Positions 1,959 to 24,514 of a stretch of DNA of 64,000 bases are shown here, one piece after another. Origin of the DNA: Pseudogymnoascus verrucosus. Taxonomy: Eukaryota. The notes under the pieces were generated by a model. The model was not told the DNA's origin. It searched no databases and saw only the letters and a program-made list of their open reading frames with translations. The stretch lies in assembly GCA_001662655.1 (NCBI GenBank), contig KV460291.1. One strand, 5' to 3'. How positions within the stretch are numbered: the first letter of the stretch is position 1; each line of letters opens with the position of its first letter. The translations under genes were made by a program, and so were the position numbers.

Positions 1959-2141
1959 CCTGATGTTGGCTTTGCGATTTTGCCGTTGCTCCTCCCGCCA
2001 AAAAGTTCTCAAGAAATTCCTCCAAAACCTCGAAATCTTGGCGCTTCTTCCGGCGCTAGCGGCCGCGTACCTCCGACGCAGCCAACGACATGTATCGCAG
2101 TTTATGGCGAAGTCAAGACAATGGCCGGAAATACATAAATC

Positions 2142-6098: not shown

Positions 6099-7217
6099 AT
6101 GCCTTTAACAGCTCACGCCGTTGATGCGGCCGACGTGCACAAAGCCGTCAAGCTCCTCATCAACAACCTCGTGAACATTACAGACACCACCGGCGAGTTT
6201 CTTCTCCGCCTTCCAGATGGCCGCGTTATCGACACCAAGGGCTGGAACGACTGGGAATGGACGCACGGCGTCGGTCTCTACGGTATCTGGAAGTACTACG
6301 AGCTGACCGGCGAAGAGGAGTACCTCCAGATCATCGAGGCATGGTTCAAGAACCGCTTCGAGGCCGGCGGCACCACCAAGAACATCAACACCATGGCCGT
6401 CTTCCTCACTCTTGCCTACGTCTACGAGAAAACCGGCAACCCAATTTACCTCCCATGGCTCGACGCCTGGGCTGAGTGGGCATACCATGATCTCCCCCGC
6501 ACTGAGTTCGGTGGCATGCAACACATGACATATCTCGGTCCCAACACCCAGCAGCTCTGGGACGACACTCTGATGATGACCGTCCTACCTCTCGCTAAAA
6601 TCGGAAAAGTCCTCAACAGGCCACACTACGTGGACGAGGCGACGCGCCAGTTCCTCATCCACATCAAATACCTCTTTGACACGAAGACGGGGCTCTGGTT
6701 CCACGGCTGGACCTTCGAGGATGGCGGCCACAACTTCGCGGAGGCGCTGTGGGCGAGAGGGAATGCCTGGATCACGATTGTGATCCCGGAGTACATTGAG
6801 CTGCTTGATCTGCCACATGGAGACCCGATCCGCACGCACTTACTAGATACCCTGGTTGCACAGAGCGTGGCGATCAAGAAGGTGCAGACACCTGGGGGTC
6901 TATGGTGCACGCTGTTGAGCGAGGGGGAGGATACTGGGTCATACTTGGAGGCGAGTGCGTCGGCTGGGTTTGCATATGGACTCATGAAGGCAAGGAGGAA
7001 GAGATACATTGGAGGAGAGTATGAGGAGGTTGCTGTCAAGGCCGTCAAGGCCGTCATAGAGAATATTGATGAGGACGGAGAGCTGAAGAATGTGTCGTTT
7101 GGCACTGGGATGGGAGATACGCTGCAGCACTATAAGGATATCCCGCTCACGAGCATGCCGTACGGACAGGCGATGGCGATTATGGCACTGGGAGAGTGGT
7201 TGAGGGTATACATTTAG
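6099..7217 (+). CDS. GH105 unsaturated rhamnogalacturonyl hydrolase (YteR/YesR-like), intronless, no signal peptide
   Basis: Motifs WEWTHGVGLYG, QLWDDTLMM, TGLWFHGW, WARGNAW, YLEASASAGFAYG and YGQAM; strong C-ending codon bias. Confidence 0.88.
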   Translation: MPLTAHAVDAADVHKAVKLLINNLVNITDTTGEFLLRLPDGRVIDTKGWNDWEWTHGVGLYGIWKYYELTGEEEYLQIIEAWFKNRFEAGGTTKNINTMAVFLTLAYVYEKTGNPIYLPWLDAWAEWAYHDLPRTEFGGMQHMTYLGPNTQQLWDDTLMMTVLPLAKIGKVLNRPHYVDEATRQFLIHIKYLFDTKTGLWFHGWTFEDGGHNFAEALWARGNAWITIVIPEYIELLDLPHGDPIRTHLLDTLVAQSVAIKKVQTPGGLWCTLLSEGEDTGSYLEASASAGFAYGLMKARRKRYIGGEYEEVAVKAVKAVIENIDEDGELKNVSFGTGMGDTLQHYKDIPLTSMPYGQAMAIMALGEWLRVYI

Positions 7218-7758
7218 GTCTATTGTATACGAATTACGAAAAAGATATGACAGGCATGATTTCACTTCGTGTGCTTGCTGTAACTTGCGTCTTCGGGCCT
7301 CGCTGGAATTGTAAACTTAGTGGCGCACTGATGGTCCATGAACTGAAACCTGGGTAGCCCATTGTTTGGCTCTGCCGAAACTATTGATTTCAGTAACTGA
7401 GTTGGTCTCCGCGACCCACAGGTAGTCTTCAGCACGCGGCGTGCCGCCATCCGAGGTAGCCCCGTGATGCGGGATTGGTGGGGGGTTCGGCGTGTTTGAC
7501 GTGTCGGCATATGCGGTTCAAAAATCTCGCGGGGAACGAAGGTGGCGACTTGATTACAAAGTAATGTAAAGTGAAATAGTGTAGTAATGGCCGGAATTCA
7601 TTGTTTTCTATGTCGAGAGATTTACTTTATAAAGTTACGGAGGCTAAATTTTATAGCTTAGTTTTAAGATTATTTTTGTGCACAATTGTAAATTATTATA
7701 TGACAGCAATAATATATTTTCCAAAAATATATTTCTACCTGGCATACGGCTGATTACT

Positions 7759-9543
7759 CTAGGCGTAGTCTAGGGCGACAGCGTCCCACATAAATCCATG
7801 CCAGAGCGTCTCTCTCGTAACTTGGAAGTCCAAAGTATTCCAACCCCTCTTCAGAGCCCCGTTTTCAACCGGGAACTCGTAGTAATGCCACTCTCCCGCC
7901 AAGGTACCAGACCGATACATACACGGGTCAGTCAGTATATTGGCGCTCGTAAGGTTCCCCACAGTCGTAGCGCCGTTCACAACGATCGTAGAGCTGACGC
8001 CACTGGAATACCCGGCAAGCGAGACGGAGAGCACGGCGGACGAGTCGTTCGGGAGCTTCGGGACATTGAATTTGACGGTCCAGTTCCCCTTAGCGGATTG
8101 GCCGAAGCACCAGTCTGAGGTTTTACTGGTGCCAACAGTGTAGGTAAGGTTTGCGGGGCAGTTGACCACAAGTGCGTGTTGGTGGGGTGCCCCTCCGTAG
8201 GCGAACCCCAACGACGTCCTGTCGAAATCCCCGATTTGGAAGATATTCCTCCTGTCTTGAGTCTTCCAAGTGAGGTGCCCTAGATTGGTACCCTTTTTCT
8301 TAGTTACTACAACATCGTTCTTTATGAAAGTCGTCGAAACATCACCAATGGCACCGCCGTTGGACCAGGCTTGAAATGCATAGCTTGCGGTGCGGACATT
8401 CTTGAACTGGAAGTTGCCGGCCTTGTCAGTGTAGGCCGTATAGTAGTAGTAGCGACCCATATCGAGAGTGGTCTCATTGGGGTGGTTGTCGCCAAGGAAG
8501 ACGGCAGCATTAGAAGCAGGGCGACCGTCTGAGAGGATAAGTTTTCCAGATACGGAGCCGCGCGACTGGTAAGCATCGTTGTCAAACCAAGGATATGGGT
8601 AGGTAGAGATTTCCTTCTTCGCTTTGTGAGATGCATCATTGAGGCTGCCATCGTTCTGTATTATGTGTTAGCGGAATAATTATTAGATGTTTGTCGGCAA
8701 ACTCACCAAATACCAGAGCCATGGCCCCCAGACCTTGCCAACTGGGAAAGCATCAGAGGCCGATGCCATGAAGTGTGTCCCGTGAAGCATGTTTAGCTGA
8801 ACAACATCTCCTGTTGCAGTCTCTCGGTGCACCATCAGTTCTTGCTTTAGATGGTCTCCATTGTATTCATCCTTTCCCGCATTGATGTACCAGCTGCCAA
8901 ACCCAGGACCGTACACGCCATAATACTCCTGGTCTCGGAGTAAGGCCTGCCAGTCATACTTGGTGATATATGTGCCATCCTCCTTCACCCATGTCTCATC
9001 TTGGACCTTGGTTGCGGCAGCAATATCGGCTGAAGTTGGCAAAGCCTCATCCTTGATCGACGTATGACCATTGAAGAAGGTCGTGTTGTCAAGACGCCAG
9101 AGAGTTCTAAACTCTCCAAGGATCGGAAGAGCGCGGTTAACAAAGTATTGATATGCCCCAGCAAGCTCAGGTTGGATAACCCAATGAAGTTCTCCTTCAG
9201 CAGCTTCAAAGGAAATATCCAAGTAGTCTTTGGTCTGCTTATGGATAGATACGGTAGTCCAACTCAGATCTGATGCTGCGCCATCTGTAATTATGTTAGT
9301 TACTGGGGAGGTGATGTGATAAGGATAGTTGAACTAACTGTAGCTCGCATAGTGCCCAACTGCGTTACCCACTATATCCCTGTTCTTATAGAAGAGCTTC
9401 GTGCCATATTGCTTGCCAATAGTGACGTTCCAGATATCATTGCCAATGATGTGCTCTTCGGGACCAATTGTCTTCAGGAAAGGGCCTTTGGCATGAACTT
9501 GGGTGGCAACTGCCAGGGCAGATGCCAAGATGCTGAGTCTCAT
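7759..9543 (-). CDS. Polysaccharide lyase family 4 rhamnogalacturonan lyase, secreted, 3 exons
   Basis: Signal peptide MRLSILASALAVATQVHA; motifs GEFRTLWRLD, KVQDETW, TKYDW, NGDHLKQELMVH, GPWLWY and IGDFDRT; C-terminal MWDAVAL. Confidence 0.85.
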
Positions 9544-10556
9544 TTTGAAATAAGGTATAAATTTGCCAAGCTGCTATGGAAGGATACGAAACACCCAGAA
9601 AACGAGATCTACCGTACCTTTTTTATACAACCAACCGCGCGTCCGTCATGCTCATCATCCCTCGAGCATGCTTGGGACGGCAGGCTTAGCTGCAACTGCA
9701 TATATTAAACTCGGCATTCCGGAACGATTTATAGCGAGTTATAGAGGCGGTAGATTACCCCAAATGCACTACATGTTATGATATTCACGGCAGACCTTCA
9801 CAAGCGCTACCCCTTGAGCCGTGATGACATATGTCACGGGGAGGGGCTTTGACAATTTGCTTATGAACCGTCGGCTCTTAGAATAAAGCTACCATTACCC
9901 TATTACCCTTGCGGAGATTGTTGCGGTTGGTAGAGAACGACGCTATTCAAGTTTATTGCTGGGTTATGTTAGTAGTATGCGGGCTCTATGCGTGTTGCAT
10001 GGGGGGATAGACGATCGACGGAGAAATTGACTCCGTCCATCAAAACAACCTAGAGTAATACTCCAATCAGTTCGGGGCACTTACGCGCTTCGTTCGACAC
10101 TCCACTGTACCTGGCTGGCTAACATACCCCGAAAGCGCGGGGAAATATAATATTACTATACTATACTGTCATGGTATGATATTGCTGAACCGAGGGCAAA
10201 CAACGGCGGCGTACTTTGACAGGCAATCTCGTTCATGGAAAGCTACTCTATTAACGCCTCCAAAGTGCTTCCCCGCCTTTCTCCGCAATCTAGCTCATTT
10301 ATCCCCACAAACTGACAAAATAACCATGTCGCAATTCGGGCACGTCGGGGTATCATACCCCAGATCAGAAGCATTCCATAGTGATCTGCCTCTTTTTCTC
10401 TTTTCCCCAGAAAAATGCAATCTGACTGCGTCATTAGGCGCAGTAGCCGGCCATGGCAAGCTGGGGAGTGCGAGAACTACAAAACCATGGAGTTTACCCA
10501 TTTGTGAGTGGTTCAGCGATCAAGGCGAGTTCTGAATTCCCTATCCGTCAGTCATC

Positions 10557-12765
10557 ATGGCAAAATCAAAGTCAGTTTTGGCGATTGTTCCGCTCTTCGT
10601 TTGTCTCTCGAATCTTGTTGCCCCTACTCGGGCATTCCTTACTGCAAAGGATACAGGCCCTCAATTGGTCATCGCCAACGACAGACTCTATGCTGCCGTC
10701 AACAAAACGACTGGCGCAATCCAGAATCTGAGCTTAGATGGACAAGATTTGCTTGGTGCCCCTGGATATGAAAACCCAACACCAGGAGGCGCTACCGGGA
10801 ATGGAGCAAGCGGCCTTGGGCCATATCTCGACTGTTACTGCACCCCGTCGGGCTTCTATACTCCCGGGCACCTCGCTCCTAGGTATCAGTTGATCAATGG
10901 CACCGACTCATCCAAAACTAAGTACGGAGGCATTGTGATGAGCGAGACCTATCCAGCAACTGGTCAGGTTCTTGAGCAGTATTGGTTCCTGAGAGAAGGA
11001 GAGACCGGCCTGCACACTTTCAGCCGACTTACTTATAACAACAAGACCACTCCCTTTTTGAGAAATCTACAGGAGTTCCGCACTCTGTTCCGCCCGAACA
11101 CAGCTCTGTGGACCGATCTCTCCACAAATGAGAAGCAATACGCACCCTTGCCGTCCACAGAGGCCAAGGCGAAGCAGGTTACTGTTCAGGATGCAACCTG
11201 GTACCTCGGCAACACACCGGATGATCCATACGTGCAGCAGGAGGGTGATTATTTCACCAAGTACACTTTCCAGGATACCTGGAGAGACCATGATGTCCAC
11301 GGAATGTACGCGGACGGCAAGTACAGTAACGATGGCAGCACTTTTGGTGCCTGGCTCGTTATGGGTGTCAAAGATACTTACTTCGGAGGACCATTGCATT
11401 CGGATCTGGTCGTAGATGGTATTGTGTATAATTACATGGGTAAGTCAAATACACCAATCTGAACCCATCAACTACTGATTCTTAGAAAGTGAGCAACCAC
11501 CATGGTGATGGCACTCCCAACATCACTGATGGATTCGACCGCACATTCGGCCCAGTGAGTGTCCTGCAATTGCCATTAATCACACTCATATTCTAACCAC
11601 CCACAGTCATATTTCCATTATAACAAGGGTTCCCCAACGACAACACTGCAAGAGCTCCGCCAGGACGCTCTGCAGTACGCCTCACCAGACTGGAACGCTG
11701 ACTTCTACGACGACATTGCCAAGTACGTGCCAAACTATGTCCCAACCACCAAGCGTGGAACCTGGAAGGGACACGTCAAGCTCCCCAAGGGTGCCACCAA
11801 GCCGCTCGCTGTCTTGGCTCAGAACGGTGTCGACTTCCAAGACAATGACCAAGATACGAAAGCGTACCAGTATTGGGCCGACATTAACCCGAAGACTGGC
11901 AACGTCGAGATCCCCCGCGTCAAGGAAGGCACCTACAGACTGACCATCTACGCCGACGGTATCTTCGGGCAGTACACCCAAGACAACATTGTGGTCAAGG
12001 CCCGCAAGACGCAGAACACACACGTGAACTGGAGCGAGGAGAGCGCCGGCAAGGAAATCTGGCGCATCGGCACGCCCGACAAGTCCGCGGGCGAGTATAA
12101 GCACGGATACGAGCTGAACCTGGAAAAACCATTACAGCCTGAGCAATATCGCAACTACTGGGCCGCATATGACTTTCCCACCGAGTTCCCCAACGGCGTC
12201 GTGTACAAGGTGGGCGAGAGCGATGCCGGCAAGGACCTGAACTACATTCACTGGAGTGTCTTCGGAGGCTACGGGAACTCGGTGCGCACGGAACCCTACT
12301 ACGAGAATGTAAATAACTGGACCATCCAGTTCGATCTGACCAAGAAGGAGCTCAATCACAAGAAGAAGGCAACCTTCACGGTGCAGCTTGCGGGCGCGAA
12401 GACTGCGGCGGGAAACACGGATGTGTATAACGCGTCGGAGCCCTTTGCGAATCTCCCATACACCGTTGCGGTTAATGGGCGCGACCTGAAGCCTTGGGTT
12501 ATTCCGTAAGTTTTGTCAGTATTGGATAGGGGTTACAGAAAGCTAACTTGGTCATAGGTACTACCACAGCAGTTCTTGCGGTGTGCGGTCGGCTGTTATC
12601 TGCTACAACATCGACAACAAATTCGCGTTTGATACGTCGCTGTTGGTCGAGGGTCTTAATGAGTTCACTCTCAGTCTGCCATATAACGCTATTGACTACG
12701 AGAGCGCGGTGTTGGCACAATCCACGTATGTGCAGTACGATGCGATGCGGTTGGAGATTGAGTAG
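10557..12765 (+). CDS. Polysaccharide lyase family 4 rhamnogalacturonan lyase (RglB-like), secreted, multi-exon
   Basis: Motifs GPYLDCYC, LQEFRTLFRP, VQDATW, YFTKY, GGPLHSDLVVDGIVYNY, SNHHG, IWRIGTPDKS and VQYDAMRLE. Introns at about 11439-11488, 11554-11606 and 12506-12557. Confidence 0.88.
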
Positions 12766-13111: not shown

Positions 13112-13582
13112 TCATCCACATCTACATCTATATCCGCACCCACGCCCCATTCTTCTCGGCTCCGCAATGCAGATCTCCGCGCATGTCATCGCTAATATAG
13201 ATATAATCATTTTGAAGTCATGAGTTCCATGATAGAACGCAATCATCTCGGCCGTCATGATAAAAATACTGCACATAAATAGAGTAATCGCAAAGACCAT
13301 GGTCGCAATAATTCTGATGGATCCTGCTTCATTTGCGACACTCTTAAGAAATTGTAAAAACTTTTTGGCTCTTGTTTGTATGCTGTTGTCCAGATATCGA
13401 GGTGGGCCAGAAGAGAGATCTTGGCCTATAGTATCCTGATTCCCGTCGTCCACAGCTTCGGGATGCTCGCTGGCGTCGTCTGAAAGTTCAGAGATATCAA
13501 TTCTTGTCTTCGAGATATTCATTTCCATATCGGCGAGGAGTTGTGGTAATGGAAGGTATGGATAGATAGGTAGTTTTGGCAC
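13112..13582 (-). CDS. Hypothetical membrane protein, divergent from the cassette array
   Basis: 156-aa ORF starting at GTG (first ATG gives MEMNISK). Acidic N-terminus followed by two hydrophobic segments. No family recognised. Confidence 0.35.
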   Translation of the reverse strand: MPKLPIYPYLPLPQLLADMEMNISKTRIDISELSDDASEHPEAVDDGNQDTIGQDLSSGPPRYLDNSIQTRAKKFLQFLKSVANEAGSIRIIATMVFAITLFMCSIFIMTAEMIAFYHGTHDFKMIISILAMTCAEICIAEPRRMGRGCGYRCRCG

Positions 13583-13843
13583 GTTAGAAAATATTCGAGA
13601 AGGGAGGGAGCTTAAGTCGCAAGATGTATCGTATGATGATGATGATCATGTTGCCGGATAGCTTCATTTATCATTAGACCACGCAATTTCGAGCTAGCTA
13701 TCACACTTGGTCCTTCCGTTCTTGGATATGAAACTAAGTCACCACTTACCCACCTTCTATCTGAACTACCTCCTGCCACAGTATACCTCCAAAAAAATCG
13801 CTACCATGATTTCCCATCTCTCAGACACCCACAGAGAATAGCA

Positions 13844-14154
13844 ATGCATAACGTCGAAGCCACCAATAACAACCATGAACCCACCATGCGCCGAGCCTCA
13901 CCATCAACCTACAGGCACAAACTCACCTAAACAGCCCCGATCCCGCCACAGAAGCGTCCTCCCATCAGCTGGTTGGATTCCCTAAAGCAGCTCCACGCAA
14001 AGTTAAGCGCGTTCTTCCTGATCTTCGCTGAAACACTAGGGTTAATATGTTCGGCATATTGCTCGTGTCCGCAATGGCGCTCTTCGTCGTTTGGGGGCTT
14101 ATGGTTTTAGCGGGGTCTTTGCTGCTCGATGGGCTGAAGGCATGCGTCCGTTGA
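13844..14154 (+). pseudogene. Array cassette 1, frameshifted
   Basis: MHNVEA start, then PPQKRPPISWLDSLKQLHAKL in another frame, then MFGILLVSAMALFVVWGLMVLAGSLLLDGLKACVR* after a further frameshift. Confidence 0.7.
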
Positions 14155-14404
14155 TCGAAAGGAGGAGGGTGTTGCCCGACGCGCTTGGGGAACACGGCAC
14201 GGAGAGACAAACACCTGTTAGGAAAGTACGGGATGGGCGATAGTAGGAAAAAAGGAGAAACGTACGATGATAATGAAACCGCTTCTATGACTACTCTTAT
14301 ACATGAATACAAGCCACCGCACCCCCCACCTTCCATAAAAACCACCCATTACGATAATTTCCCCTACGCATATCCTCAACTCAAAATCCACCATTTCTAT
14401 ATTC

Positions 14405-14734
14405 TTGACGACAGCAACACCCGCTCAAAATAACAATGCACAACACCGAAGCCAACCCCCTCCTATCCAAACCTCCCCAGCGAGACACGCAACTCCCCGA
14501 GCCTACCCCGTGCCGCAGCTACCCAAAATGCCGCCTATTAGTCGCCTGGAGAAACTCAAGAAGCTTGACGCAACTTTAAAGGCATATACCCCAGTACTCA
14601 TGGAGCTATTCGGCTTCGTGCTTGGCACAATAGGGTTGGTAACGGTCGCATTGGTTGCCTTGGGGGTGGCGGTGGGGCTGCTGGGACTTGTGTTGCACGT
14701 ACTGATCCTGGGGGCGAAGGCAGTTTTTCATTAA
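14405..14734 (+). CDS. Array cassette 2 small membrane protein (likely start ATG 14528; ancestral MHNTEA ATG at 14436 is out of frame)
   Basis: MPPISRLEKLKKLDATLKAYTPVLMELFGF followed by a ~35-aa hydrophobic stretch and GAKAVFH*. Confidence 0.7.
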   Translation: MTTATPAQNNNAQHRSQPPPIQTSPARHATPRAYPVPQLPKMPPISRLEKLKKLDATLKAYTPVLMELFGFVLGTIGLVTVALVALGVAVGLLGLVLHVLILGAKAVFH

Positions 14735-15021
14735 TCAAATGGTAGAGGGTTGCCCAACGGATCAAGGAGCGCAGAGATGAACAGTTGTCTAGAAACAGAG
14801 AAGCGACCGATAATTTAAAAGTAGTACAATAGTACGACCATGTGCCCCTAGATCATGCCGCTTCCAACTATCACCTCATTTCTTGCTTTCTAGGAAATGA
14901 ATACAGACTACCGCCTTCCACCTCCTAGCACAATATATATTCCCATCCATAGTCCAAGATAAAAAACCACCACCTCCAACTCCTAGACGACATCGACCTA
15001 CCACCCAGAAATAAAACAGCA

Positions 15022-15364
15022 ATGCATGACCTCGAATCCGCTATGCACAACTCTAATACCTAGTCTAACTCGTCTCCCCCTCTCTACCCACCAATGCCAA
15101 GGTCGGCCCAAACTTCTCCAGCCAGCAGCACACCAATGATGCCACCCTCGCGTCAGAAATCTTAGATCAGCCGCCTGAATAACTCAAGAGCAGCTCAACA
15201 AAACTTTGAGCGAGTACAGCCCAGAGCTGGAGGATCTGGCCGGACACGTGGTCCACACGTTGATGATATGTCTTGGGGTGATAGTTGCAGTTGTAGTTGC
15301 GATGGAATTGATTGGCGGATTATTGTATCTATTTTTCCTAGGGGTGAAGGCGATTTTCTTTTGA
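15022..15364 (+). pseudogene. Array cassette 3, two in-frame TAG stops plus a frameshift
   Basis: MHDLESAMHNSNT*(15061)..PPLYPP..RQKS*(15163)ISRL, then a frameshift to QLNKTLSEYSPEL..LICLGVIVAVVVA..LFFLGVKAIFF*. Confidence 0.75.
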
Positions 15365-15626
15365 TGTAAGTGAAGGTTAGTTCCTTGTGCGCTCTGAATT
15401 TTAGAAAAGGATGGGGCAGTCGATAGTCGGAAGGAAGAAATATCGTATGATCATTATGCTCCTTTAGACCATGCCGCTTCTAGCTATCACCTCATTCCTT
15501 CCCTTCCTAGAAATGAATATAAAGAATTACACCACCTACTTCTTGTCCAAACCACCACGTACCAATGATAATTATTACTAGTACAATGCTAAGAAGAAAT
15601 ACTCAAGCATCCTGAACGTTATCAAA

Positions 15627-15977
15627 ATGCATCACCTTGAAACAGCAATGAATAACCTCGAAATGGCAATGAGTAACCTCGAAGCAGCAATTGATAACTT
15701 CGAAACAGCAAAACACAACTCTGGGGTCCAACTCCCCTCGCCTTTTTCTTCCTACCCAGAGGCAAGCTACACGTACCACAGCACTCAAACGAACCCCCCT
15801 CCTTTACAGGGGACTCCTGATATCTCAATGAGATTCAAGCAATATGACGCATTTTTTGGCGGGTACGGCCCAGACCTCGGATTTGAGATTGGAGTGATAG
15901 CATTCTGGACGAGCAGGCTGGTTGTTGTAGGATTGGTGGTAGTGTTGGTGTGGAATGTGTTGTACTTGTTATTTTAG
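15627..15977 (+). CDS. Array cassette 4 small membrane protein with N-terminal heptad duplication
   Basis: MHHLETA-MNNLEMA-MSNLEAA-IDNFETA 21-bp repeats; HSTQT; YGP; hydrophobic C-terminus. The usual LGAKAI ending is frameshifted off. Confidence 0.65.
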   Translation: MHHLETAMNNLEMAMSNLEAAIDNFETAKHNSGVQLPSPFSSYPEASYTYHSTQTNPPPLQGTPDISMRFKQYDAFFGGYGPDLGFEIGVIAFWTSRLVVVGLVVVLVWNVLYLLF

Positions 15978-16280
15978 GAGCGAAGGCCATTTCCTGTGAT
16001 CGAAGGCGGGGTCAGCACCTCATGCGCTCTAGGTGCATGAAGTTAAACAGTTGTCGGGAAGGGATGAAGAGTGTGACATTATCATACGACGATTATATGC
16101 CCTTGGGCGATGTGGCTTCTAGATATGATCTCATTCGTTCCTTTCTTAAAAATATAAACCATCACACTTCCCACAACTCTTCACCACCTCCTATCACGAT
16201 AACTATACCAATCCACATCGCACACCGCCCCAAATAAACACACACAAACCCAAACCGTCAAACGCCACCAACCTCCCAAA

Positions 16281-16526
16281 ATGGCCCTACCAAAGCTCGA
16301 AACCGCATCCATCGCCCCTCGACCACCCCCAACCCTCCTGGAGAAACTCAGCCGCCTTGACGCAAGCTTTCAGACATACGGCCCCATCCTCGTGAGATGC
16401 TTTGAATTCATAACGCTCACATCTTTGGGGGCGCTGGCGATAATAGCCCTGGTTACTGCCTTACTAGGAGGCATAGGACTTGCGTTATTCTTGTTGGTTC
16501 AGGGCGTAAAGCTGGTTCTCACTTAA
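16281..16526 (+). CDS. Array cassette 5 small membrane protein
   Basis: caaaATG context; MALPKLETAS..PPTLLEKLSRLDASFQTYGP, hydrophobic stretch, GVKLVLT*. Confidence 0.75.
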   Translation: MALPKLETASIAPRPPPTLLEKLSRLDASFQTYGPILVRCFEFITLTSLGALAIIALVTALLGGIGLALFLLVQGVKLVLT

Positions 16527-16793
16527 TCGAAGGAGGAGATGTTGCCCGATGGGTCCTTGAGGACGTGGAGATATGGACAGCTTTTATGAAGGGGGGGACT
16601 AGGTGATATGAGAAGCGGTATCGTACGAAGTTAATTCCAGGTCGGACCATGTTGCTTTTATCACCTCATTATTTCCGTTCTTAGAAATGAATATAAACCA
16701 CCACACTACCCATCACTCTACTTTCAAACCCCCACCTCGAAAAATAATCATCACGCCTACAGTAAAGTCTCAAAACACCAACGAACCCACAAA

Positions 16794-16988
16794 ATGGCAC
16801 TTCCAAGGCTTGAAACCGCATCCATCGCGCCCCGGCCCCCCGCCCTACAGAACATCTTCGTATTCGTGCTTGGCGCGTCACTGGCGACGGTGGTAATGGT
16901 AGGCGCGGTACCGCTGGTGCTATTTAGCGTAGGAGCGGCGTTGTTCGCGTTGTACCAGGGGGGGAAGACAGCTATGGAGAACTCATAG
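16794..16988 (+). CDS. Array cassette 6 small membrane protein, internally deleted
   Basis: MALPRLETASIAPRPP is nearly identical to cassette 5. The LEKL helix is missing and the hydrophobic tail is kept. Confidence 0.6.
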   Translation: MALPRLETASIAPRPPALQNIFVFVLGASLATVVMVGAVPLVLFSVGAALFALYQGGKTAMENS

Positions 16989-17294
16989 CTGTCTTCATCT
17001 CCTAGACTGGTAGCTGCAGCTTGCTCGGTGAAAGGTTTCCGGGCATGGAGGGACTAATGATTCTCGGAAAAGATGGGGGTTGGGGTGTCAAAGGAAGTAG
17101 CATCATACGACCACTCCGGAACGTACGACTTCTAGTTATCACCTCACTCTTTCCTTTCCTGGAAATAAATATAAGGAACCACACTACCCACGTCCACTCC
17201 CACTACCTCCGCCAGAATAACCTTATTACCGCCTTTAAACTAAAAATCCACAACACCAAACATCCAAACACCGCAGTGTCCAAAAACCAGAAAA

Positions 17295-17624
17295 ATGCAC
17301 ACCCCAAAAACCGCCGCGCACAATTTCAAGCCCCCCCCTTCCGTACTTCCACCACCATGCCCACCTCCCTGCTTGTTATGCCGCAAAACCCCGCCCGCCC
17401 CAGCAGAGCCCGCCACCAGTCTGCTCGTAAAACTTGAGCGCCTCGAGGAAACACTAAAGGCGTATGGGCCGGTCTGTGTAAGACTATTCGAACTGGGGTT
17501 GCACGCGGGGTTAATGGTGATCTTGGGGACGGTGATGGCGACGCTCGTGGTGTTAACTGTGGGGGGTGCATCGGCCCTGTTGCTGTGCCTGTTGGTTGAG
17601 GGATTGAAGGCTATTATGGGCTGA
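17295..17624 (+). CDS. Array cassette 7 small membrane protein
   Basis: MHTPKTAAHN, Pro-rich stretch, SLLVKLERLEETLKAYGPVCVRLFEL, hydrophobic stretch, GLKAIMG*. Confidence 0.75.
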   Translation: MHTPKTAAHNFKPPPSVLPPPCPPPCLLCRKTPPAPAEPATSLLVKLERLEETLKAYGPVCVRLFELGLHAGLMVILGTVMATLVVLTVGGASALLLCLLVEGLKAIMG

Positions 17625-17789
17625 TCGGAAGACGGAGGAAGAAGGAAGGGGTATCGTATGAGGATTATGTGTCGTCAGATCAGACATCACCTCATTCTTT
17701 CCCTACCTAGAAATCAATATAAGCCACCACCATATCACGCAACCCATCTCCTACAACTACCAATTACCACCACCAAACAAAAAACAAAC

Positions 17790-17950
17790 CACAACGCCAA
17801 AACACCAGTCTGTGTAAGACTATTCGAATTCGTGATGGATAAATTGTATCTATTTATCTCGGGGTTGGCAACGGGGGCGGCCGTGGGACTAGTCGTGGTG
17901 GCGGTGGTGGTCCTGTCGGTTCAAGGGTGGAAGTTGGTTAGGGGTTATCG
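17790..17950 (+). pseudogene. Array cassette 8, 5'-deleted and stop codon lost
   Basis: PVCVRLFEF matches cassette 7 at the DNA level (gtctgtgtaagactattcgaa). No ATG at the expected position. The usual TRA-TCGAA ending reads TTA-TCGAA. Confidence 0.65.
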
Positions 17951-18158
17951 AAAGAGGGACGAGGAAGGGGTGCTGTATGAGGATTGTCAGTACTCGAACC
18001 ATGTGTCGTCGCAGCAGGAATCACCTCATTCCCCCCTCTCCCGGGAATGAATATAAAGAACCATCGCACCACACAGCTCTCCTCCCACCACCACCGCCTA
18101 CCACGAACCGCAAGCGCACCACCCCCAACCTCTCAACCTACCATCAAACCCATCAAAT

Positions 18159-18461
18159 ATGGCCCCTCCAAAGCTTGAAACAGATTCCCTTGCGGCACTA
18201 TCTCTTAAATACGCCAAACCAGTCAAACCCGTCAAACCTGTCAAACGCACAAAACCCCCCCTCACCGTCCTCGAGAAACGAGAGCGCCTGGAGAGAACTC
18301 TGAAATTGTACTCGCCTGTCTGTGAAAAGCTATTTGTATTCGTGGTTTGCGGGTCGCTTATGTTGATCACCGCGTTGATGGTGGTGTCGCTCTTGGTGTT
18401 TTGCATTTGGGTTGCAGTGTATTTCTTGTCGAGGGGGTGGCGATGGCCGTGGTCTGGTTAA
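18159..18461 (+). CDS. Array cassette 9 small membrane protein
   Basis: MAPPKLETDS, (KPV)3, PPLTVLEKRERLERTLKLYSPVCEKLF, hydrophobic stretch, GWRW. Confidence 0.75.
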   Translation: MAPPKLETDSLAALSLKYAKPVKPVKPVKRTKPPLTVLEKRERLERTLKLYSPVCEKLFVFVVCGSLMLITALMVVSLLVFCIWVAVYFLSRGWRWPWSG

Positions 18462-18685
18462 AGGGGGGGTAAAGGGGAGGGTATCGTATGAGGATTATGT
18501 CTCGTCAACAGACCATGTGTTAGAGTATTAGTTATCGCCCCATTCCTTCTGTTCCTGGAAATAGATATAAATCACCACACCACCGACTTGTTCTTACAAC
18601 CTCCTTAAAAATACCACTCACTATCCCAAAATCCGCCACTTCCCTCTGAACTCTCAAATACAACCAACCCGATAAACAAGCTACA

Positions 18686-18994
18686 ATGCACAACCCTCCA
18701 GCCACCACCGGCACTCAACCCCTCGCACCTCCTCCCTACCAACTATCATCTCGCCAGACGCATAGCCGCGGGACCCAAACCGACTCCCCTCTACCACAAG
18801 CAGCCCCTCGCAAACGCCCCACCACCCTCCTAGAAAAAATAAATTTGTGCAACAACATACTGGATGAGTACCTTCCGGCCTTAATGGAACTTATGATGCG
18901 CACAATGGTTGGGCTCTTGATGCTGGCGTTTGCGGCCATTCCGCTTGTGATCGCGTTTATGGCGGTGTTCGGGTTTGGGGCGTGGAGGAGATGA
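18686..18994 (+). CDS. Array cassette 10 small membrane protein
   Basis: MHNPPATTGTQPLAPPPY..RGTQTD..PTTLLEKINLCNNILDEYLP, hydrophobic stretch, GAWRR*. Confidence 0.75.
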   Translation: MHNPPATTGTQPLAPPPYQLSSRQTHSRGTQTDSPLPQAAPRKRPTTLLEKINLCNNILDEYLPALMELMMRTMVGLLMLAFAAIPLVIAFMAVFGFGAWRR

Positions 18995-19379
18995 GGCGGT
19001 GGGTAGTATGGAGTCTGTGATTGTTTGGTTCTAGGGTGGAAGGTGGTCGTGGGGTGATGGAAAAGGGGGGGGAGGGGGGGTGTCGTACGAGGGTTCGGCG
19101 TCCTCGAACCACGCGCCGAAGGAGTAGCTAGATATCTCCTCATTATTCCCTTTCATAGAACTGATAAGTGATAATTAACCACCCACCCATATCACCAACT
19201 TCTTCTTCTTCCTACCTCCACTACAAATACCCATTACCAACACACCCCAAACCCACCACTTCCATCTATCCAACGCCAACCAGCAGCCCTCATAAATAAC
19301 GCACCAGTGAATCCCCCAACCGCCCTCTACAACTCCTCCGCCCAATACCCCGCCCCTACACCCCTCTTAAACAAGCACA

Positions 19380-19770
19380 ATGATCAACCCCTCTGCAACC
19401 ACCAGTGCCCAACTCCCCCCACCTCCTCCTTACGACTCACGTTCTCCCTACAACCCACATCCTCAATACAGCCCACGTCCTCCCTACAACCCACATCCTC
19501 CCTACAACTCACGTCCTCCCTCCAACCGACCTCCTCCCCACAACCCATCACCCCACAAAACGCACCAAGGCACCCAACCCAGCCCCTGCATCTGCATCTA
19601 CACCGCACCCGCGCCCTCTCTCGCGCCACCCCCCCCTTCACTTTTCTCCAAAACCCCAAGAAGAAGAAGAAGCTCGACTGCTGTTGCCCGGATTTACTCT
19701 TGTCCTCATCGTGCTGCTGATTGGGAGGATGGTTTTCACTGCTGTTTGGTGTGGTTTGGGGAAGGGGTGA
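19380..19770 (+). pseudogene. Array cassette 11, frameshifted, with internal 18-bp repeats
   Basis: MINPSATTSAQLPPPPPY followed by PYNPHP/PYNSRP repeats and THQGTQP. The helix (PPFTFLQ..KL) and the hydrophobic tail (LLLPGFTLVLIVLLIGRMVFTAVWCGLGKG*) lie in other frames. Confidence 0.65.
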
Positions 19771-19976
19771 GGTGGGATGGGGGTATCGTATGAGGATTGT
19801 GGATGGACTGATTAGGGGTATCACCTCATTATTTCCTTGCTTAGAAAGGGATATATAGATAGAACTATGCAACCCCCATCTCTGAACCCATCACCACCTA
19901 CCTACAACCCAAAATCCAGCACCCTCCCTCTAGACTCTCAAAAATCCAACAAACAACGCCCTTCAACCCACCAAAA

Positions 19977-20315
19977 ATGCACAGCCCCTCGACCATCACC
20001 ACCACCACCACCGGCGCCCAACCCACGCCTCCTCCCTCCCACCCACCATTCCGCCAAACACATCAAGGCACCCAAACCACCCCCTCTGCCTTTACCCGCC
20101 CACCCCCCCCTCCTCCCACACCAACCCCCATCCCAAAGCCCCCCTCCACCACCTTACCTGAAAAACTCCAGAAGGTCGATGCGAACCTCAAGGAGCTCGC
20201 CCCGGTCGTGGGGAGTATATTGGAGACGCTATCTCCTGTGATGGAGGTTGGGTTTATGGCGCTGATGGCGGGGGGGTTTTTTGCGCTTGTTTGGTATGGG
20301 ATTCGGCTAGGGTGA
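19977..20315 (+). CDS. Array cassette 12 small membrane protein
   Basis: MHSPST..TGAQPTPPP..RQTHQGTQT..TTLPEKLQKVDANLKELAP, hydrophobic stretch, GIRLG*. Confidence 0.75.
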   Translation: MHSPSTITTTTTGAQPTPPPSHPPFRQTHQGTQTTPSAFTRPPPPPPTPTPIPKPPSTTLPEKLQKVDANLKELAPVVGSILETLSPVMEVGFMALMAGGFFALVWYGIRLG

Positions 20316-20545
20316 GGTGGAGGGGTGGTATGAGAGTTGTGTTGTTGTGAGGATTGTGGGTGTCGTATGAGGATTAGCTGGAGTCGGATCAGGGGGGTAT
20401 CACCTCATTATTTCCTTTCTTAGAAAAAGGATATAAACAACCATACCACCACATACTTTTCTAAACCAATCACCACCCACCAATCCCAAACCCAGCACCT
20501 CGAACCTCTCAAACACCACCAACCCCTTAACCACCAAAACCAAAA

Positions 20546-20870
20546 ATGCACAACCCCTCAACCACCACGGGCGCCCAACCCCTCCCACCACCTCAGCAGA
20601 CACACCGAGGCACACAAACCCTCCCCATCTCCGCCCAACCCTCTCCTCCTCCCCCCTGCGCCCCTACAAAACCTCCCCCCCCCCCCAACCCGCCTCGAGA
20701 AACTCGAGGCCCTCCACAGAACTCTCGAACAGTACGTGATGGTGGGCATGGACTTTGGGTTCCTCGCATTCTGCGCGATGACGATGGGGTTCATGATGTT
20801 GTTGGTGGTGGGGGCGTTTGTGGTGGGGCCTGTTGTGGTGGGGTGGAGGGCTTGGAGGGGGGAGTCGTGA
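20546..20870 (+). pseudogene. Array cassette 13, frameshift at a C12 run (or a sequencing error)
   Basis: MHNPSTTTGAQPLPPP..THRGTQT. After the poly-C at 20675-20686 another frame gives TRLEKLEALHRTLEQYV..FLAFCAMTMGFMMLLVVGAFVVGPVVVGWRAWRGES*. Confidence 0.7.
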
Positions 20871-22192
20871 TGGTGGGTGGGTGGGTGGTTGCTTGAGTGA
20901 TGGGGATGCGTGGAGGGTGATGGGTAAGAGTCTTATTTTTCAAGATTTATGAATGCGGAAAAGGAGATTAATGACCTTCCCCGACCGTAGGGCGAAAATG
21001 CGTAGCCGTCGCATCCAAAGACGGAGTGCTCGTCCACGATATCGACTAAGTCTGCTAGACCGGGAATTTTGTGTTGGATTTGAGCAGGGAACTCCGCTGC
21101 CATGTTTGTATACTAGTTCGCACTATCCGATCTATGTTAAATGAAAAACTAAGGACTTTGAAATCACGCAAGTCTTTGTTTAACAGCAGGTTACTAGTAG
21201 AATTGATTAATGCTACAGTCGCTAGATAACTTGATTGTGGTGCATAATATGAAGACACTACAGGACTTCGAATGCGCAATGTTAACGGGGCTGCTGCTAT
21301 ACACGCGTTAACATCATATGTCCTCTTGCTAGTGAAAGTCGTACGTAGGCATAGAGTAGATTCTAAAGTTCTTCTTCATTGTTTATAGCATAACTTCGTA
21401 TAACATTCTCTTAGGAAAGGGGGGGGGATAGCTTCACTAATTGAGCGAGCGTCATTAGCAACTACTCTACGAACGAGAACTGTATCTTTGAAGCGTTAAA
21501 GGCGACTAAGGAAGGTGTGCTGAAGTCTAGAGATGTCAAGGCTCTGGATTCACTTAAGGCTCACCTTGAGGCTGACACGTCGATCAGCAAGTTGGGCTGC
21601 TGACAAGGCCTGGCTGGATGCCTTGTTCGTTTCACCAGTTGAGGAAAACCGCACCAACAAAGGGGGCGCTAATGTTAACTTTGTTAATTCTTGTTTGCGT
21701 GGGAAATGATGAGGGAAGTTGGGGGGGGGGACTGTAGGTTAGAAGTAGATTAAGTGATTACAGCATTTTCTCTCATCACTGAATAAAAACGAAAGACATG
21801 CAAAAACACGGCAATTGAAGAAAGGTCTTAATATTATCTCTCCCAACCCCATCTAAGATTCCCTCACCCGCTCATGAACGAGTTACATGGACATCCCATC
21901 TCTCAAAAGCATGCAATGCGGCCGAAACGCAAAACGCAATGCAGTAGCAGGTACCTCGCGATCTCTCTTCCTCTCTATCCTTCCTTCCTCGTGAATCACC
22001 CTCTCAGGGAGACACGGCAGCAAACTTTAAAAAAAGAAAAGCTTTCACTTCCAATCTTGTTTTTCTTCTCAACGCCCTAAAATTCCCAAAAACACAAATA
22101 TCAAAAGCCATGGACATCAAGACATTAACAACTACCACTCAAAATCCCTTAAAATAGGAAAACAATGCGACCACGTCTCTAAAACACGGCGC

Positions 22193-24514
22193 TTAAGTCG
22201 TTTTCGGGCCAGCAGCGATAACATCCTCAGTCGCCTCATCAGAGTACTTCTTGAAGTTCTCATTGAACAGAACACCAAGCTTGTTGACCTCAGCCTTGAA
22301 GCTCTCATCACCCGCAGTCCACGCGTTGCGGGGGTTAAGCAGCTCCGATGGGACGTTAGGGCAAGTCTTGGGGACGGACAGGTTGAAGGTATCGTAGACC
22401 TCGTACTCGACGTTCTGGAGCTCACCAGAGTGGATAGCATCGAGGATAGCACGAGTGTACTTGAGCGGGCAGCGCTTGCCACCGGTGGCGGCACCGGCAC
22501 CAACCCATCCGGTGTTGAGGAGCCAGGCGTTGGCCTTGTGCTCCTCGATCTTGGAGGCCAGCATCTTGGCGTAGCGCATGGGGTGGAGGGCGAGGAAGGG
22601 CTGGGCGAAGCACGAGGAGAAGGTGGCTTGGGGCTCGGTGACGCCCTCTTCGGTGCCGGCCATCTTGGAGGTGTAGCCGGAGATGAAGTGGAACATGGTC
22701 TGGGCGGAGTTGAGCTTCGAGATGGGGGGGAGGACACCGCGCGCGTCGCAGGTGAGGAGGATGATGTTGGTGGGGTGGCTGGAGGAGACGCAGGGGATCT
22801 TGGCGTTCTGGATGTACTCGATGGGGTAGGCGCAGCGGGTGTTCTCGGTGAGGGTGATGTCGTCGTAGTCGACGTGGCGGGTATCTTGGTTGAACACGAC
22901 GTTCTCGAGGACGGAGCCGTACTTGATGGCGCCGTAAATATCGGGCTCCTTCTCGGCGGACAGGCCGACGCACTTGGCGTAGCAGCCACCCTCGATGTTG
23001 AAGACACCACGGTCGGACCAGCAGTGCTCGTCATCACCGATCAGCTGGCGGTTGGGGTCAGCAGACAGAGTGGTCTTTCCGGTACCAGAGAGACCGAAGA
23101 AAACGGTGACATCGCCATCCTTGCCCTCGTTGGCGGAGGAGTGCAGGGTGAGCACGTTGTGCTTGACCGGCATCTCGTAGAAGAGAACTGTGAAAACACC
23201 CTTCTTCATCTCACCAGCGTACTCGGTACCGAGGATAACCATCTCCTTGTCGGCGAAGTTGATGGCAACCGAAGTGGCGGAGGTCATGCCCTCAGTGAAT
23301 CTGTTTGCTGGGAAAGAACCGGCGTTGTAGATGGTGTAATCGGGGTGGAAGTGCTCAAGCTCAGATCTCTCCGGGCGGATAAGCATGTTGCGCATGAACA
23401 GAGCGTGGTAGGCACGCGCGCAGACGACGCGGACCTTGATTTGGTACTTCTTGTCCCATCCTGCGTAACCGTCGATAACGTAGATGCGGTTCCTTGTGTT
23501 GAGGTAATCAATGGCTCTCTCGCGGTTAATCTTCCAGACCTTTGATAATATAGAGTTAGCAAACGCTCAATGTTTGTGTGGTGGCATAATGTGATAAACT
23601 GTGAAGAGTGCACGTGATGGTGGGGAAATTTTGGGGGATGTTGTCTTGGCGAGCTACGGTTGTCGGTAACGCCAACGGCAGTCAAAACCAGAAGGCGGGG
23701 TAACAGGGCAGTGATGTCAGGTCGGAATTGGCACCCGAGGAAAGCCGAAACATCACCCTCGCGCATTATCGTAATGCGACGACAACAAGACGTAAGCGTG
23801 CCAATGCAGACGCATTGAGGTCTTGGGAGCACGGGATCCGGGGTAGGGATACAAAATGTAGACATGTAGATATTCGCAAAAAAAGGTTCTCTTACCTCAG
23901 TAGTCATTGGCTTGTTAACAGGGCCCCACCAGATCTCGTTCTCAGAAGATGGCTCCTTGACAATACGCTTGTCGAGAGGAGATCTGCCGGTCTTCTTTCC
24001 GGAGTATGCAGTAAGAGCACCGCTCGATGTGATGGCTGAACCGGTCTCGTAAACTAAGGCATCTTCGTAGAGGGCAGCGACTGAGGGGTTGGGGACCTGA
24101 GAGAGCATATGTCAGTGGGGTTAGATTTTCAGAGAGTGGCAGGCAGGACATACGATGGCAACGCGGTCATAGTCGAGGTTGGCCTTCTCGTGGAGCTCCT
24201 CCTCGAGCTCAGTGTGCTCGAAAGAAGGTCTAAGACACGCATGTAGTCAGTATATTGATCCGAGGCAGGTAGACAGGCAACGACGACGAGGTCTGAGGGA
24301 CAGGCAGGAGCAAGTGGGAAACTCACGCAACACCACCCGGGTGCAGGGCGGTCTTGTTGACGGTGTTGGAAACCATGGTGCGCAGTGAAGTGGAGTGGTA
24401 GTTCAGATTTCCAGATGCAAGTTGTTTAGATCGAGGGCCAAGGTGTGATGGATCGGGAGTAGGGGTCATAGGACGACGAGTTGGGCCATCGCCTTCTTTA
24501 AGTACAGGAGCCAT
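22193..24514 (-). CDS. PCK1: Phosphoenolpyruvate carboxykinase (ATP), multi-exon
   Basis: Motifs [49 protein letters not shown] and [10 protein letters not shown]. Start is either 24514 (MAPV) or 24376 ([15 protein letters not shown]). Confidence 0.95.

What the first reader, a model, noticed from the sequence alone, without database searches (positions are those of the whole stretch)
18728..20620. Array proteins carry PPxY and (R/K)xTQT short linear motifs in only some copies
Seen: PPPY in cassette 10 (18728) and cassette 11 (plus repeated PPY), and PPLY in pseudogene 3. RGTQT occurs in cassettes 10 (18767) and 13 (20606), QGTQT in 12 and HSTQT in 4. Cassettes 5, 6, 7 and 9 lack both motifs. 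Established: PPxY binds WW domains of Rsp5/NEDD4 ligases, and (K/R)xTQT binds the dynein light chain LC8. In fission-yeast wtf drivers, PY motifs distinguish the antidote from the poison. Metazoan Bim combines a TQT motif, an amphipathic helix and a tail anchor. Inference by analogy only, not homology: PY-bearing and PY-less paralogues could act as antidote and poison, or as regulated membrane-active peptides.
Basis: partly seen in the sequence, partly recalled or inferred. Interest (0 to 1): 0.7.

Follow-up and report, generated by a model that had tools for sequence, protein, structure and literature searches.

The report
Fungal membrane-protein array with LC8 motif
A cold-loving soil fungus carries a row of 13 related small membrane-protein genes, many of which keep a near-ideal docking site for the cell's pairing protein LC8 and sometimes a tag for disposal, but nothing found supports the idea that the copies act as poison and antidote.

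Summary
The array is 13 cassettes of a family of small proteins with no significant Pfam, PDB, Foldseek or Atlas match; every named homologue is from Pseudogymnoascus. Each has a Pro-rich tail, an amphipathic helix and a hydrophobic C-terminus.

The TQT motif is stronger than claimed. It is in 22 of 29 long-tailed members (1.7 expected by shuffling) and 0 of 18 short ones. Its codons vary silently but not in meaning (pS 0.64, pN 0 among five copies). Cassette 10's HSRGTQTD matches 6 of 8 residues of the phage-selected LC8 optimum VSRGTQTE. A model docks it on fungal LC8 (0.82, best control 0.15), possibly from memory of solved complexes. PY is real but labile (13 of 29).

Most likely these are membrane-anchored LC8 clients: LC8 pairs them, Rsp5 turns over the PY-bearing ones, and the family evolves by birth and death. 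The wtf-like poison/antidote reading fails where it can be tested: PY-bearing and short motif-less members share at most 38% of their membrane part, and no second start codon gives a motif-less isoform. No binding or phenotype has been shown.

The parts
13620..20900 (+). Tandem array of 13 cassettes, spacing 334-686 nt, each a conserved upstream block plus one small ORF
   Evidence: own-genome searches found significant matches only here
13629..20440 (+). Repeated upstream block: palindromic TCRTAYGA, then ATCACCTCATT, TTC-N3-GAA and a TATA-like box 104-130 nt before the ATG; promoter role inferred
   Evidence: TCRTAYGA before 10 of 13 cassettes (10 of 12 hits in the window); exact TTC-N3-GAA in 7 of 13
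13844..14154 (+). c1: broken here (stop at 13928, frameshift near 14045); the stop sits at the Gln position of the TQT
   Evidence: a Gln codon and an open frame in 3 of 3 relatives, which carry Pro at -2; a distant c1-type homologue P0049 has PPTY and KSTQT
14436..14734 (+). c2: frameshifted here near 14524; RDTQL remnant
   Evidence: in frame in 3 of 3 relatives; homologue P0023 has PPPY
15022..15364 (+). c3: pseudogene (stops at 15061 and 15163, frameshift); PPLY at 15076, RSAQT at 15100
   Evidence: first stop shared with 3 of 3 relatives, second not
15627..15977 (+). c4: intact, 116 aa, 21-nt repeats at the start, HSTQT at 15777, no PY
   Evidence: closest homologue P0034 has RSTQT
16281..16526 (+). 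c5: intact short-class member, 81 aa, no motifs
16794..16988 (+). c6: short class, 64 aa, lacks the amphipathic helix present in P0005 and P0008; relatives carry extra cassette sequence here
   Evidence: joints at 16349, 16837, 16999
17295..17624 (+). c7: intact, 109 aa, Pro/Cys tail without motifs
   Evidence: its tree neighbour P0024 has PPPY
17790..17950 (+). c8: 5'-deleted copy, hydrophobic part only
18159..18461 (+). c9: intact, 100 aa, short-class start, no motifs
18686..18994 (+). c10: intact, 102 aa; residues 1-47 without secondary structure in the model, helix from 48, hydrophobic 65-101, Lys43 and Lys51
18728..18739 (+). PPPY, candidate Rsp5 WW-binding site of c10
   Evidence: kept in 6 of 6 hits; Tyr column 56% pairwise identity against 30% for the rest of the tail
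18761..18784 (+). HSRGTQTD, candidate LC8 site of c10
   Evidence: 6 of 8 identical to VSRGTQTE, shuffle P=4e-5; modelled interface is residues 23-33
19380..19770 (+). c11: frame broken in a C run near 19628; PPPY at 19422, 18-nt repeats 19418-19561, QGTQP at 19566
   Evidence: repeat tract 54 and 72 nt shorter in two relatives
19977..20315 (+). c12: intact, 112 aa; PPPS where c10 has PPPY; QGTQT at 20064
20546..20870 (+). c13: frameshift in a C run near 20687; RGTQT at 20606; PY deleted
   Evidence: in frame in 2 of 2 relatives that cover the place

Best explanation
The array encodes a Pseudogymnoascus family of small membrane-anchored proteins whose cytosolic, disordered tail is a docking platform. 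Shown here: the architecture, the two classes (long tail with motifs, short tail without), selective retention of TQT, and copy gain and loss. Predicted: an LC8 dimer binds the (H/S)RGTQT segment. Inferred from known LC8 biology: LC8 holds two tails in parallel and so promotes pairing of the amphipathic helix about 16 residues downstream, giving a dimer or oligomer on a membrane. Inferred from known Rsp5 biology: members with PPxY are ubiquitinated on nearby lysines and sent to the vacuole, which sets how long they last. Short-class members lost the tail and escape both controls. The family evolves by tandem duplication and decay and is probably used in a special condition or stage rather than in ordinary growth. 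My odds by step: LC8 binds c10-type members 0.8; PY engages Rsp5 0.55; LC8-driven pairing matters for function 0.5.
For: TQT in 22 of 29 long-tailed rows (shuffle mean 1.7, maximum 7), [KR]xTQT in 12 of 29 (mean 0.13), PY in 13 of 29 (mean 1.9, maximum 9); 0 of 18 short rows have either. In 16 c10-type rows, mean non-Pro identity is 84% at TQT, 56% at the PY tyrosine, 30% in the rest of the tail and 32% in the helix plus membrane part. TQT codons among c1, c4, c10, c12, c13: pS 0.64, pN 0.00, against pN 0.43-0.59 elsewhere. Pro at positions -5 to -2 in 1 of 22 sites although window tails are 25% Pro; such prolines disfavour LC8 binding (PMC6607443). SRGTQTE-type peptides bind DYNLL at 15 to 0.08 uM as monomers and below 7 nM as dimers, and motifs often flank coiled coils (PMC3078936). 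Model with Pseudogymnoascus LC8: 0.82, best of 3 controls 0.15, runs agree in at least 84% of contacts, partner pLDDT 56; the mark was reached by 51 of 78 solved and 2 of 108 mismatched pairs. PY and TQT carriers are each rejected as one clade on the core tree (p-AU 3.6e-8 and 0.003), which fits old motifs lost repeatedly. LC8 and a three-WW HECT gene are in the genome.
Against: No binding, localisation or phenotype was measured. Many TQT peptides do not bind LC8. The model may pass from memory, since SRGTQTE-DYNLL2 structures exist; peptides and disordered chains are outside the tool's calibration, and the LC8 came from another Pseudogymnoascus. The search profiles contained the motif columns, which favours motif-bearing hits. 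Rows are related and some are near-identical alleles. I drew the classes after seeing the sequences; counting the 3 c7-type rows as long gives TQT 22 of 32 and PY 13 of 32. The codon test left out c3 (AQT), c11 (TQP) and c2 (deleted Thr), and its proportions are uncorrected and near saturation. c1 in three relatives has Pro at -2. Position +2 is mostly Thr (10 of 22), not the favoured D/E/P. Helix pairing was not modelled. Five of 13 copies are broken and one is truncated in this isolate. The P. destructans homologue has 0.4-7.4 normalised counts in 21 culture samples and was not found in a proteome table.
Confidence: 0.55

Rival explanations
1. One reading: PY-bearing paralogues are antidotes that co-assemble with PY-less paralogous poisons, as in wtf drivers.
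For: As in wtf, the N-terminal motifs are the best-kept part while the membrane part diverges. Two classes differ by the motif-bearing tail. Copy number and broken copies vary between isolates. Spk-1 shows that a 134-aa, two-TM fungal protein can kill spores and its family carries a conserved PY.
Against: Cores of PY-bearing and short-class members are at most 38% identical, whereas wtf rescue needs matching sequences. The short class forms its own branch rather than pairing with PY-bearing partners. No internal start gives a motif-less isoform. PY is less conserved than TQT, and LC8 is not part of the wtf passages read. No homology to Wtf was found.
Confidence: 0.07
2. A conflict or self/non-self locus of another design: each copy is a latent membrane-active protein held in check by its own tail (Rsp5 turnover, LC8 clamping), and array content differs between strains, giving incompatibility or drive.
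For: Hydrophobic part with pN/pS 0.92-1.09 among paralogues; M0 omega 0.653 for the orthogroup; presence/absence and repeat-length variation; low counts in vegetative culture; genus-limited range.
Against: No significant positive selection in the published test (M1/M2 1, M7/M8 0.82). One locus only in this genome. High pN/pS at saturation also fits relaxed constraint on hydrophobic residues. No phenotype is known.
Confidence: 0.15
3. The proteins are adaptors rather than substrates: the membrane part recognises a cargo or organelle, PY brings Rsp5 to it (as Bsd2, Ear1 or NDFIP do; recalled) and LC8 organises the scaffold.
For: Both motifs at a fixed distance of 12-13 residues in 7 of 7 rows checked, on an exposed tail ahead of a diversified membrane part.
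Against: Only 10 of 29 long-tailed rows have both motifs; a single PY per protein; no Pfam match to known adaptors.
Confidence: 0.13
4. The motifs are neutral leftovers of a Pro/Thr-rich ancestor, shared only by descent; the proteins do little and the array is decaying.
For: Six of 13 copies are damaged here; c11's PY is expected by chance (0.53); low expression in culture.
Against: Silent sites in TQT are as diverged as elsewhere while replacement changes are absent. The lesions in c1 and c2 are absent from 3 of 3 relatives, that in c13 from 2 of 2. TQT columns far exceed their flanks. This rival remains more plausible for PY (about 0.3) than for TQT (about 0.05).
Confidence: 0.08
5. The cassettes are structured-RNA units and the protein pattern is a by-product of C-rich and G-rich halves.
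For: C-rich and G-rich halves give weak inverted repeats.
Against: Folding z-scores of 7 of 13 cassettes range from -1.0 to +2.3 (12 shuffles each); no Rfam match near its threshold; relatives' indels keep the reading frames open.
Confidence: 0.02

Closest known systems
LC8/DYNLL clients with a TQT motif beside a dimerising helix (EML3, Swallow, Bmf; PMC3078936, PMC6607443)
   Same: An 8-residue motif in a disordered region next to a helix; c10 matches the selected optimum at 6 of 8 positions; modelled on LC8.
   Different: A very small membrane-anchored fungal protein in a 13-copy array with motif-less siblings; no sequence homology to known clients; binding not measured.
Fission-yeast wtf poison-antidote genes (PMC10721834, PMC11892871)
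   Same: PY in a cytosolic N-terminal tail of a membrane protein; fast-diverging multicopy family; tail motifs are the best-kept part.
   Different: No homology found; single-exon ORFs of 64-116 aa with one hydrophobic block; one tandem locus; no dual isoforms evident; PY-bearing and motif-less forms have unlike cores; an LC8 site is the dominant motif.
Neurospora Spk-1 family (PMC8092558; PY noted in PMC10721834)
   Same: Small (134 aa), genus-restricted, diverse membrane proteins with a PY motif.
   Different: No Neurospora-named hit among the named homologues; two separated TM segments in Spk-1; killing is shown there and untested here. Not compared directly.
Rsp5/NEDD4 PY-motif substrates and adaptors (Bsd2, Ear1, NDFIP; recalled)
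   Same: PPxY on a membrane protein with lysines nearby.
   Different: Single, often lost PY; no Pfam match; combined with an LC8 site.
Bim (BH3-only protein; recalled)
   Same: TQT motif, amphipathic helix and C-terminal hydrophobic anchor in the same order.
   Different: No conserved BH3 pattern; fungi have no Bcl-2 family (recalled); resemblance of layout only.

Membership tests
LC8 client | TQT-type anchor with compatible flanks (large or basic -3, no pre-anchor Pro) | tested here: met
   TQT 22 of 29; -3 Arg/Lys 12 of 22; pre-anchor Pro 1 of 22; +2 mostly Thr rather than D/E/P
LC8 client | Motif lies in a disordered region | tested here: met
   Residues 1-47 without secondary structure, low pLDDT in the first 40; a prediction from a 16-row alignment
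LC8 client | Motif conserved above its flanks | tested here: met
   84% against 30%; pN 0 at pS 0.64
LC8 client | Physical binding to LC8 | tested here: inconclusive
   Model passes (0.82 against 0.15) but may be from memory of solved complexes; no measurement
LC8 client | Adjacent dimerising coiled coil | tested here: inconclusive
   Amphipathic helix follows the tail; pairing not modelled
Rsp5/NEDD4 substrate or adaptor | [LP]PxY in a cytosolic tail, conserved | tested here: inconclusive
   13 of 29 long-tailed rows (shuffle mean 1.9); Tyr column 56%; lost in c12 and c13; topology inferred
Rsp5/NEDD4 substrate or adaptor | Lysines near the motif and a ligase in the genome | tested here: met
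   Lys43 and Lys51 in c10; three-WW HECT ORF
Rsp5/NEDD4 substrate or adaptor | PY-dependent binding and ubiquitination | not testable with these tools
   needs pull-down and ubiquitination assay
wtf drivers | Sequence homology to Wtf proteins | tested here: not met
   No Pfam family over cut-off for 10 window ORFs or 22 aligned members; the 34 profile hits look like this family
wtf drivers | Poison and antidote isoforms from one gene by alternative starts | tested here: not met
   No in-frame Met between TQT and helix in the TQT-bearing rows; transcript starts themselves not seen
wtf drivers | Antidote and poison share a near-identical membrane part | tested here: not met
   At most 38% between PY-bearing and short-class rows; 9-41% among window copies
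wtf drivers | Spore killing and rescue | not testable with these tools
   needs crosses or heterologous expression
Spk-1 family | Homology to SPK-1 | not tested
   No SPK-1 sequence at hand; no Neurospora name among the named hits
BH3-only proteins (Bim) | Conserved BH3 motif with Gly-Asp | tested here: not met
   By inspection of the alignment; pattern recalled

The most novel reading that the evidence does not exclude
A new kind of fungal conflict or incompatibility locus: an array of small membrane-active proteins whose activity is switched by the hub protein LC8 (pairing or clamping) as well as by Rsp5, with tail-less copies acting as unrestrained forms and tailed copies as restrained forms. 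It would be a toxin control run through LC8, which I did not find described in the papers listed.
Probability: 0.15. Interest if true: 0.85.

Novelty: new variant of a known kind. Interest (0 to 1): 0.58.

Why it matters
The family has no Pfam, PDB or Atlas match, and four literature searches (listings only) showed no description of it. Its best-kept feature is an LC8 site close to the tightest laboratory-selected one. That gives a direct handle on orphan genes: two point mutants (TQT, PY) test the mechanism in yeast or in vitro. The natural series with both, one or neither motif is a ready-made experiment on how short motifs are kept and lost after tandem duplication. If tail-less copies prove toxic, it would be a new spore-killer or incompatibility design in a genus that includes the bat white-nose fungus.

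Tried and rejected
Rfam: 3 weak matches, all far below their thresholds. Pfam: nothing over cut-off; the Avr2, PRA1, RAMP4 and SapB_2 hits are weak and were rejected. PDB sequences: best E 0.13; a caveolin row at E 6.8 is not significant. Foldseek: no PDB match, no viral match under E 0.001. ESM Atlas: one unnamed hit at 0.79 for c10, no usable hit for P0019. Metagenome scans by promoter pattern and by short-class profile found nothing. None of 10 window proteins is in the 15-billion set letter for letter. No RNA holder listed for the array; this is no evidence on expression. Earlier scan findings: none. Assembly error as the cause of the broken copies: the possible source run's contigs show no differences or gaps over the array, so the lesions look real, though that run is not independent. 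RNA hairpin reading rejected. The divergent 138-aa ORF is not detectably homologous to the family (hhalign probability 0.3%). VC83_09292 was not found in the supplements of PMC5810475 (file searched, no hit), PMC7549942 (file cut when stored) or PMC13208438; 13 of 25 supplements of PMC5750222 were not searched. Only 40 of 436 substitution rows (up to 15206) and 12 of 64 indel rows were shown, so relatives' alleles at the c10-c13 motifs were not read from DNA.
Full report
Setting. The window is fungal. The array lies between a polysaccharide-lyase region (Pfam PL4 domains at 7762-8460) and PEP carboxykinase (Pfam PEPCK_ATP at 22196-23395). All named homologues are Pseudogymnoascus proteins, and the main LC8 exon of this genome is identical to Pseudogymnoascus LC8 over 43 residues. 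Thirteen cassettes follow each other at 334-686 nt. Each has a conserved upstream block and one short ORF. Searches of the own genome with c10, c5 and the promoter pattern found significant matches only in this array.

Observation. c11 holds one canonical PY. c3's PPLY lies behind a stop shared with three relatives. An unguided DNA alignment and codon reading show remnants at the TQT position in c1 (T-stop-T), c2, c3 and c11. I predicted that c1's stop replaced a Gln codon; 3 of 3 relatives have that codon, along with a Pro two residues before it. Shuffle tests give P=5e-4 for [KR]xTQT and 0.017 for PY over 12 tails; the copies are not independent.

Family. Profile searches returned 15 hits, 6 hits (only 8000 candidates scored) and 34 hits at E up to 0.001 among 1.84 billion representatives. 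I aligned 53 rows: 10 of 13 window copies (c3, c8 and c11 left out) and 43 of 53 fetched proteins (six cluster members and four mis-called models dropped: P0015, P0020, P0029, P0048; P0020 has both motifs and P0029 has RGTQT). I sorted them after seeing them into 29 long-tailed, 18 short-class, 3 c7-type and 3 truncated rows. TQT is in 22 of 29, [KR]xTQT in 12, PY in 13, both in 10 and neither in 4. The short, c7-type and truncated rows have none. The profiles contained the motif columns, so these fractions lean upward. Adjacent locus tags in one published orthogroup (VE00_02653/4, VF21_06627/8, with VC83_09292) point to tandem copies in other species; its M0 omega is 0.653 with no significant positive selection (PMC5750222, one supplement row and passages).

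Anatomy. The c10 model has no secondary structure in residues 1-47 and one helix from 48 to 101 (pTM 0.35). The first part of that helix is amphipathic. A hydrophobic stretch of 23-51 residues ends 0-10 residues from the C-terminus; it could be one long segment or a hairpin, which I could not decide. No signal-peptide-like hydrophobic stretch is at the N-terminus, so a cytosolic tail is inferred.

Selection on the motifs. In 16 c10-type rows (120 pairs), non-proline identity is 84% at TQT, 56% at the PY tyrosine, 30% in the rest of the tail and 32% in the core. Among c1, c4, c10, c12 and c13, TQT codons show pS 0.64 and pN 0.00; the rest of the tail shows 0.57 and 0.43, the helix 0.68 and 0.52, the hydrophobic part 0.62 and 0.59. 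c3, c11 and c2, where the triplet has changed, were not in this test, and the stop codon of c1 was skipped. On a tree of the core alone (41 of 53 rows), PY carriers and TQT carriers are each rejected as one clade; the short class is not rejected (p-AU 3.6e-8, 0.003, 0.25). Old motifs with repeated loss is the simplest reading, though gene conversion could mimic it and the tree rests on few columns.

LC8. Phage display gave VSRGTQTE as the best LC8 binder; SRGTQTE, GSRGTQTE and VSRGTQTE bind at 15.2, 1.64 and 0.08 uM, and dimerised forms below 7 nM (PMC3078936, passages). c10 has HSRGTQTD, 6 of 8 identical (shuffle P=4e-5); P0006, P0016 and P0018 also score 6. Prolines before the anchor, which disfavour binding, occur in 1 of 22 sites, but +2 is usually Thr, and many TQT peptides do not bind (PMC6607443, passages). 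A model of c10 residues 14-47 with a dimer of Pseudogymnoascus LC8 (P0057) scored 0.82 against a best control of 0.15; runs agree in at least 84% of contacts, partner pLDDT is 56, and the interface is residues 23-33. The mark was reached by 51 of 78 solved and 2 of 108 mismatched microbial pairs, and by 39 of 65 novel solved and 2 of 126 unrelated eukaryotic pairs; peptides and disordered chains are untested. Similar complexes are solved, so the pass shows likeness, not binding. AlphaFold-type screens separate LC8 binders from non-binders only partly (PMC12057147, passages).

PY. The motif is kept in 6 of 6 hits, 12-13 residues before the Gln, and turns up in c1-, c2- and c7-type homologues whose window counterparts lack it. 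It is lost in c12 (Tyr to Ser) and c13 (deletion). One relative lacks 72 nt of c11; if that were its only change, no canonical PY would remain, but its substitutions there were not shown. A three-WW HECT ligase gene is present. An Rsp5 role is plausible and weaker than the LC8 case.

Turnover of copies. The possible source run matches the window without differences. The lesions in c1 and c2 are absent from 3 of 3 relatives, that in c13 from 2 of 2 covering it, and all three relatives carry extra cassette sequence around c5-c6. The array gains and loses copies, and this isolate has lost several recently.

Expression. The P. destructans homologue VC83_09292 has 0.4-7.4 normalised counts in 21 culture samples, against 554-3075 for VC83_09290 (PMC12113139, supplement rows). 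It was not found in a proteome table (PMC13208438, supplement). The neighbouring tag VC83_09291 has high counts on bat lesions (PMC7549942, one supplement row) and no row in the culture table as held, but I could not see its sequence, so its membership is unknown.

Poison and antidote. In wtf, both products come from one gene, share identical membrane domains, and the PY-bearing form carries its matching partner to the vacuole (PMC10721834 and PMC11892871, passages). Here cores of PY-bearing and short-class rows are at most 38% identical, the short class branches apart from PY-bearing rows, and no internal Met offers a motif-less isoform. The family is not wtf, and the trans version of the idea is unlikely (0.07). 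A looser conflict role remains open (0.15), since the pattern of kept tail motifs, divergent membrane part and variable copy number resembles wtf and Spk-1 (PMC8092558, passages).

Verdict. The best reading is a family of small membrane-anchored LC8 clients, some also under Rsp5 control, evolving by birth and death (0.55). Four searches (listings only) showed no paper on it; most subscription journals are not in that library. Interest 0.58.

Noticed in passing
window 13112-13528 (-): A 138-aa ORF head-to-head with cassette 1 has PPRY followed by LDNSIQTR (IQT is an LC8 anchor variant), a basic amphipathic stretch and two hydrophobic segments: the same order of parts as the array proteins, yet no detectable homology, no Pfam family and one copy in the genome. 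Conservation not checked.
   Followed up: partly
window 13629-20440, upstream of each cassette: Palindromic TCRTAYGA before 10 of 13 cassettes (10 of 12 hits in the window) and TTC-N3-GAA just ahead of a TATA-like box; a shared regulator is likely but unidentified.
   Followed up: partly
window 13600-21000 against runs X3, X5, X7: The window has T where relatives have C more often than the reverse (43:21, 44:26, 58:39; p 0.008, 0.04, 0.07) with no matching A/G bias; two stops arose from Gln codons. Could be RIP-like or methylation-driven change; the runs are related.
   Followed up: partly
run X3, record 10: A second 6.6-kb contig carries pieces like the c5 start and the c7 upstream block: a second array or a second related organism in that run.
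   Followed up: no
window 19418-19561: 18-nt coding repeat in c11, 54 and 72 nt shorter in two relatives; c4 has 21-nt coding repeats at 15619-15722.
   Followed up: partly
P. destructans locus tag VC83_09291: Hypothetical gene next to the family member VC83_09292, with high counts on bat lesions and no row in the culture table as held; sequence not seen.
   Followed up: no
window 56079-58114 (-): ORFs that look like a cytosine DNA methyltransferase (recalled motifs); not examined.
   Followed up: no
window 6099-12765: A pectin-degrading cluster next to the array: a PL4-domain gene, a second similar-looking lyase gene and a glycoside hydrolase-like ORF (the last two by recall).
   Followed up: no
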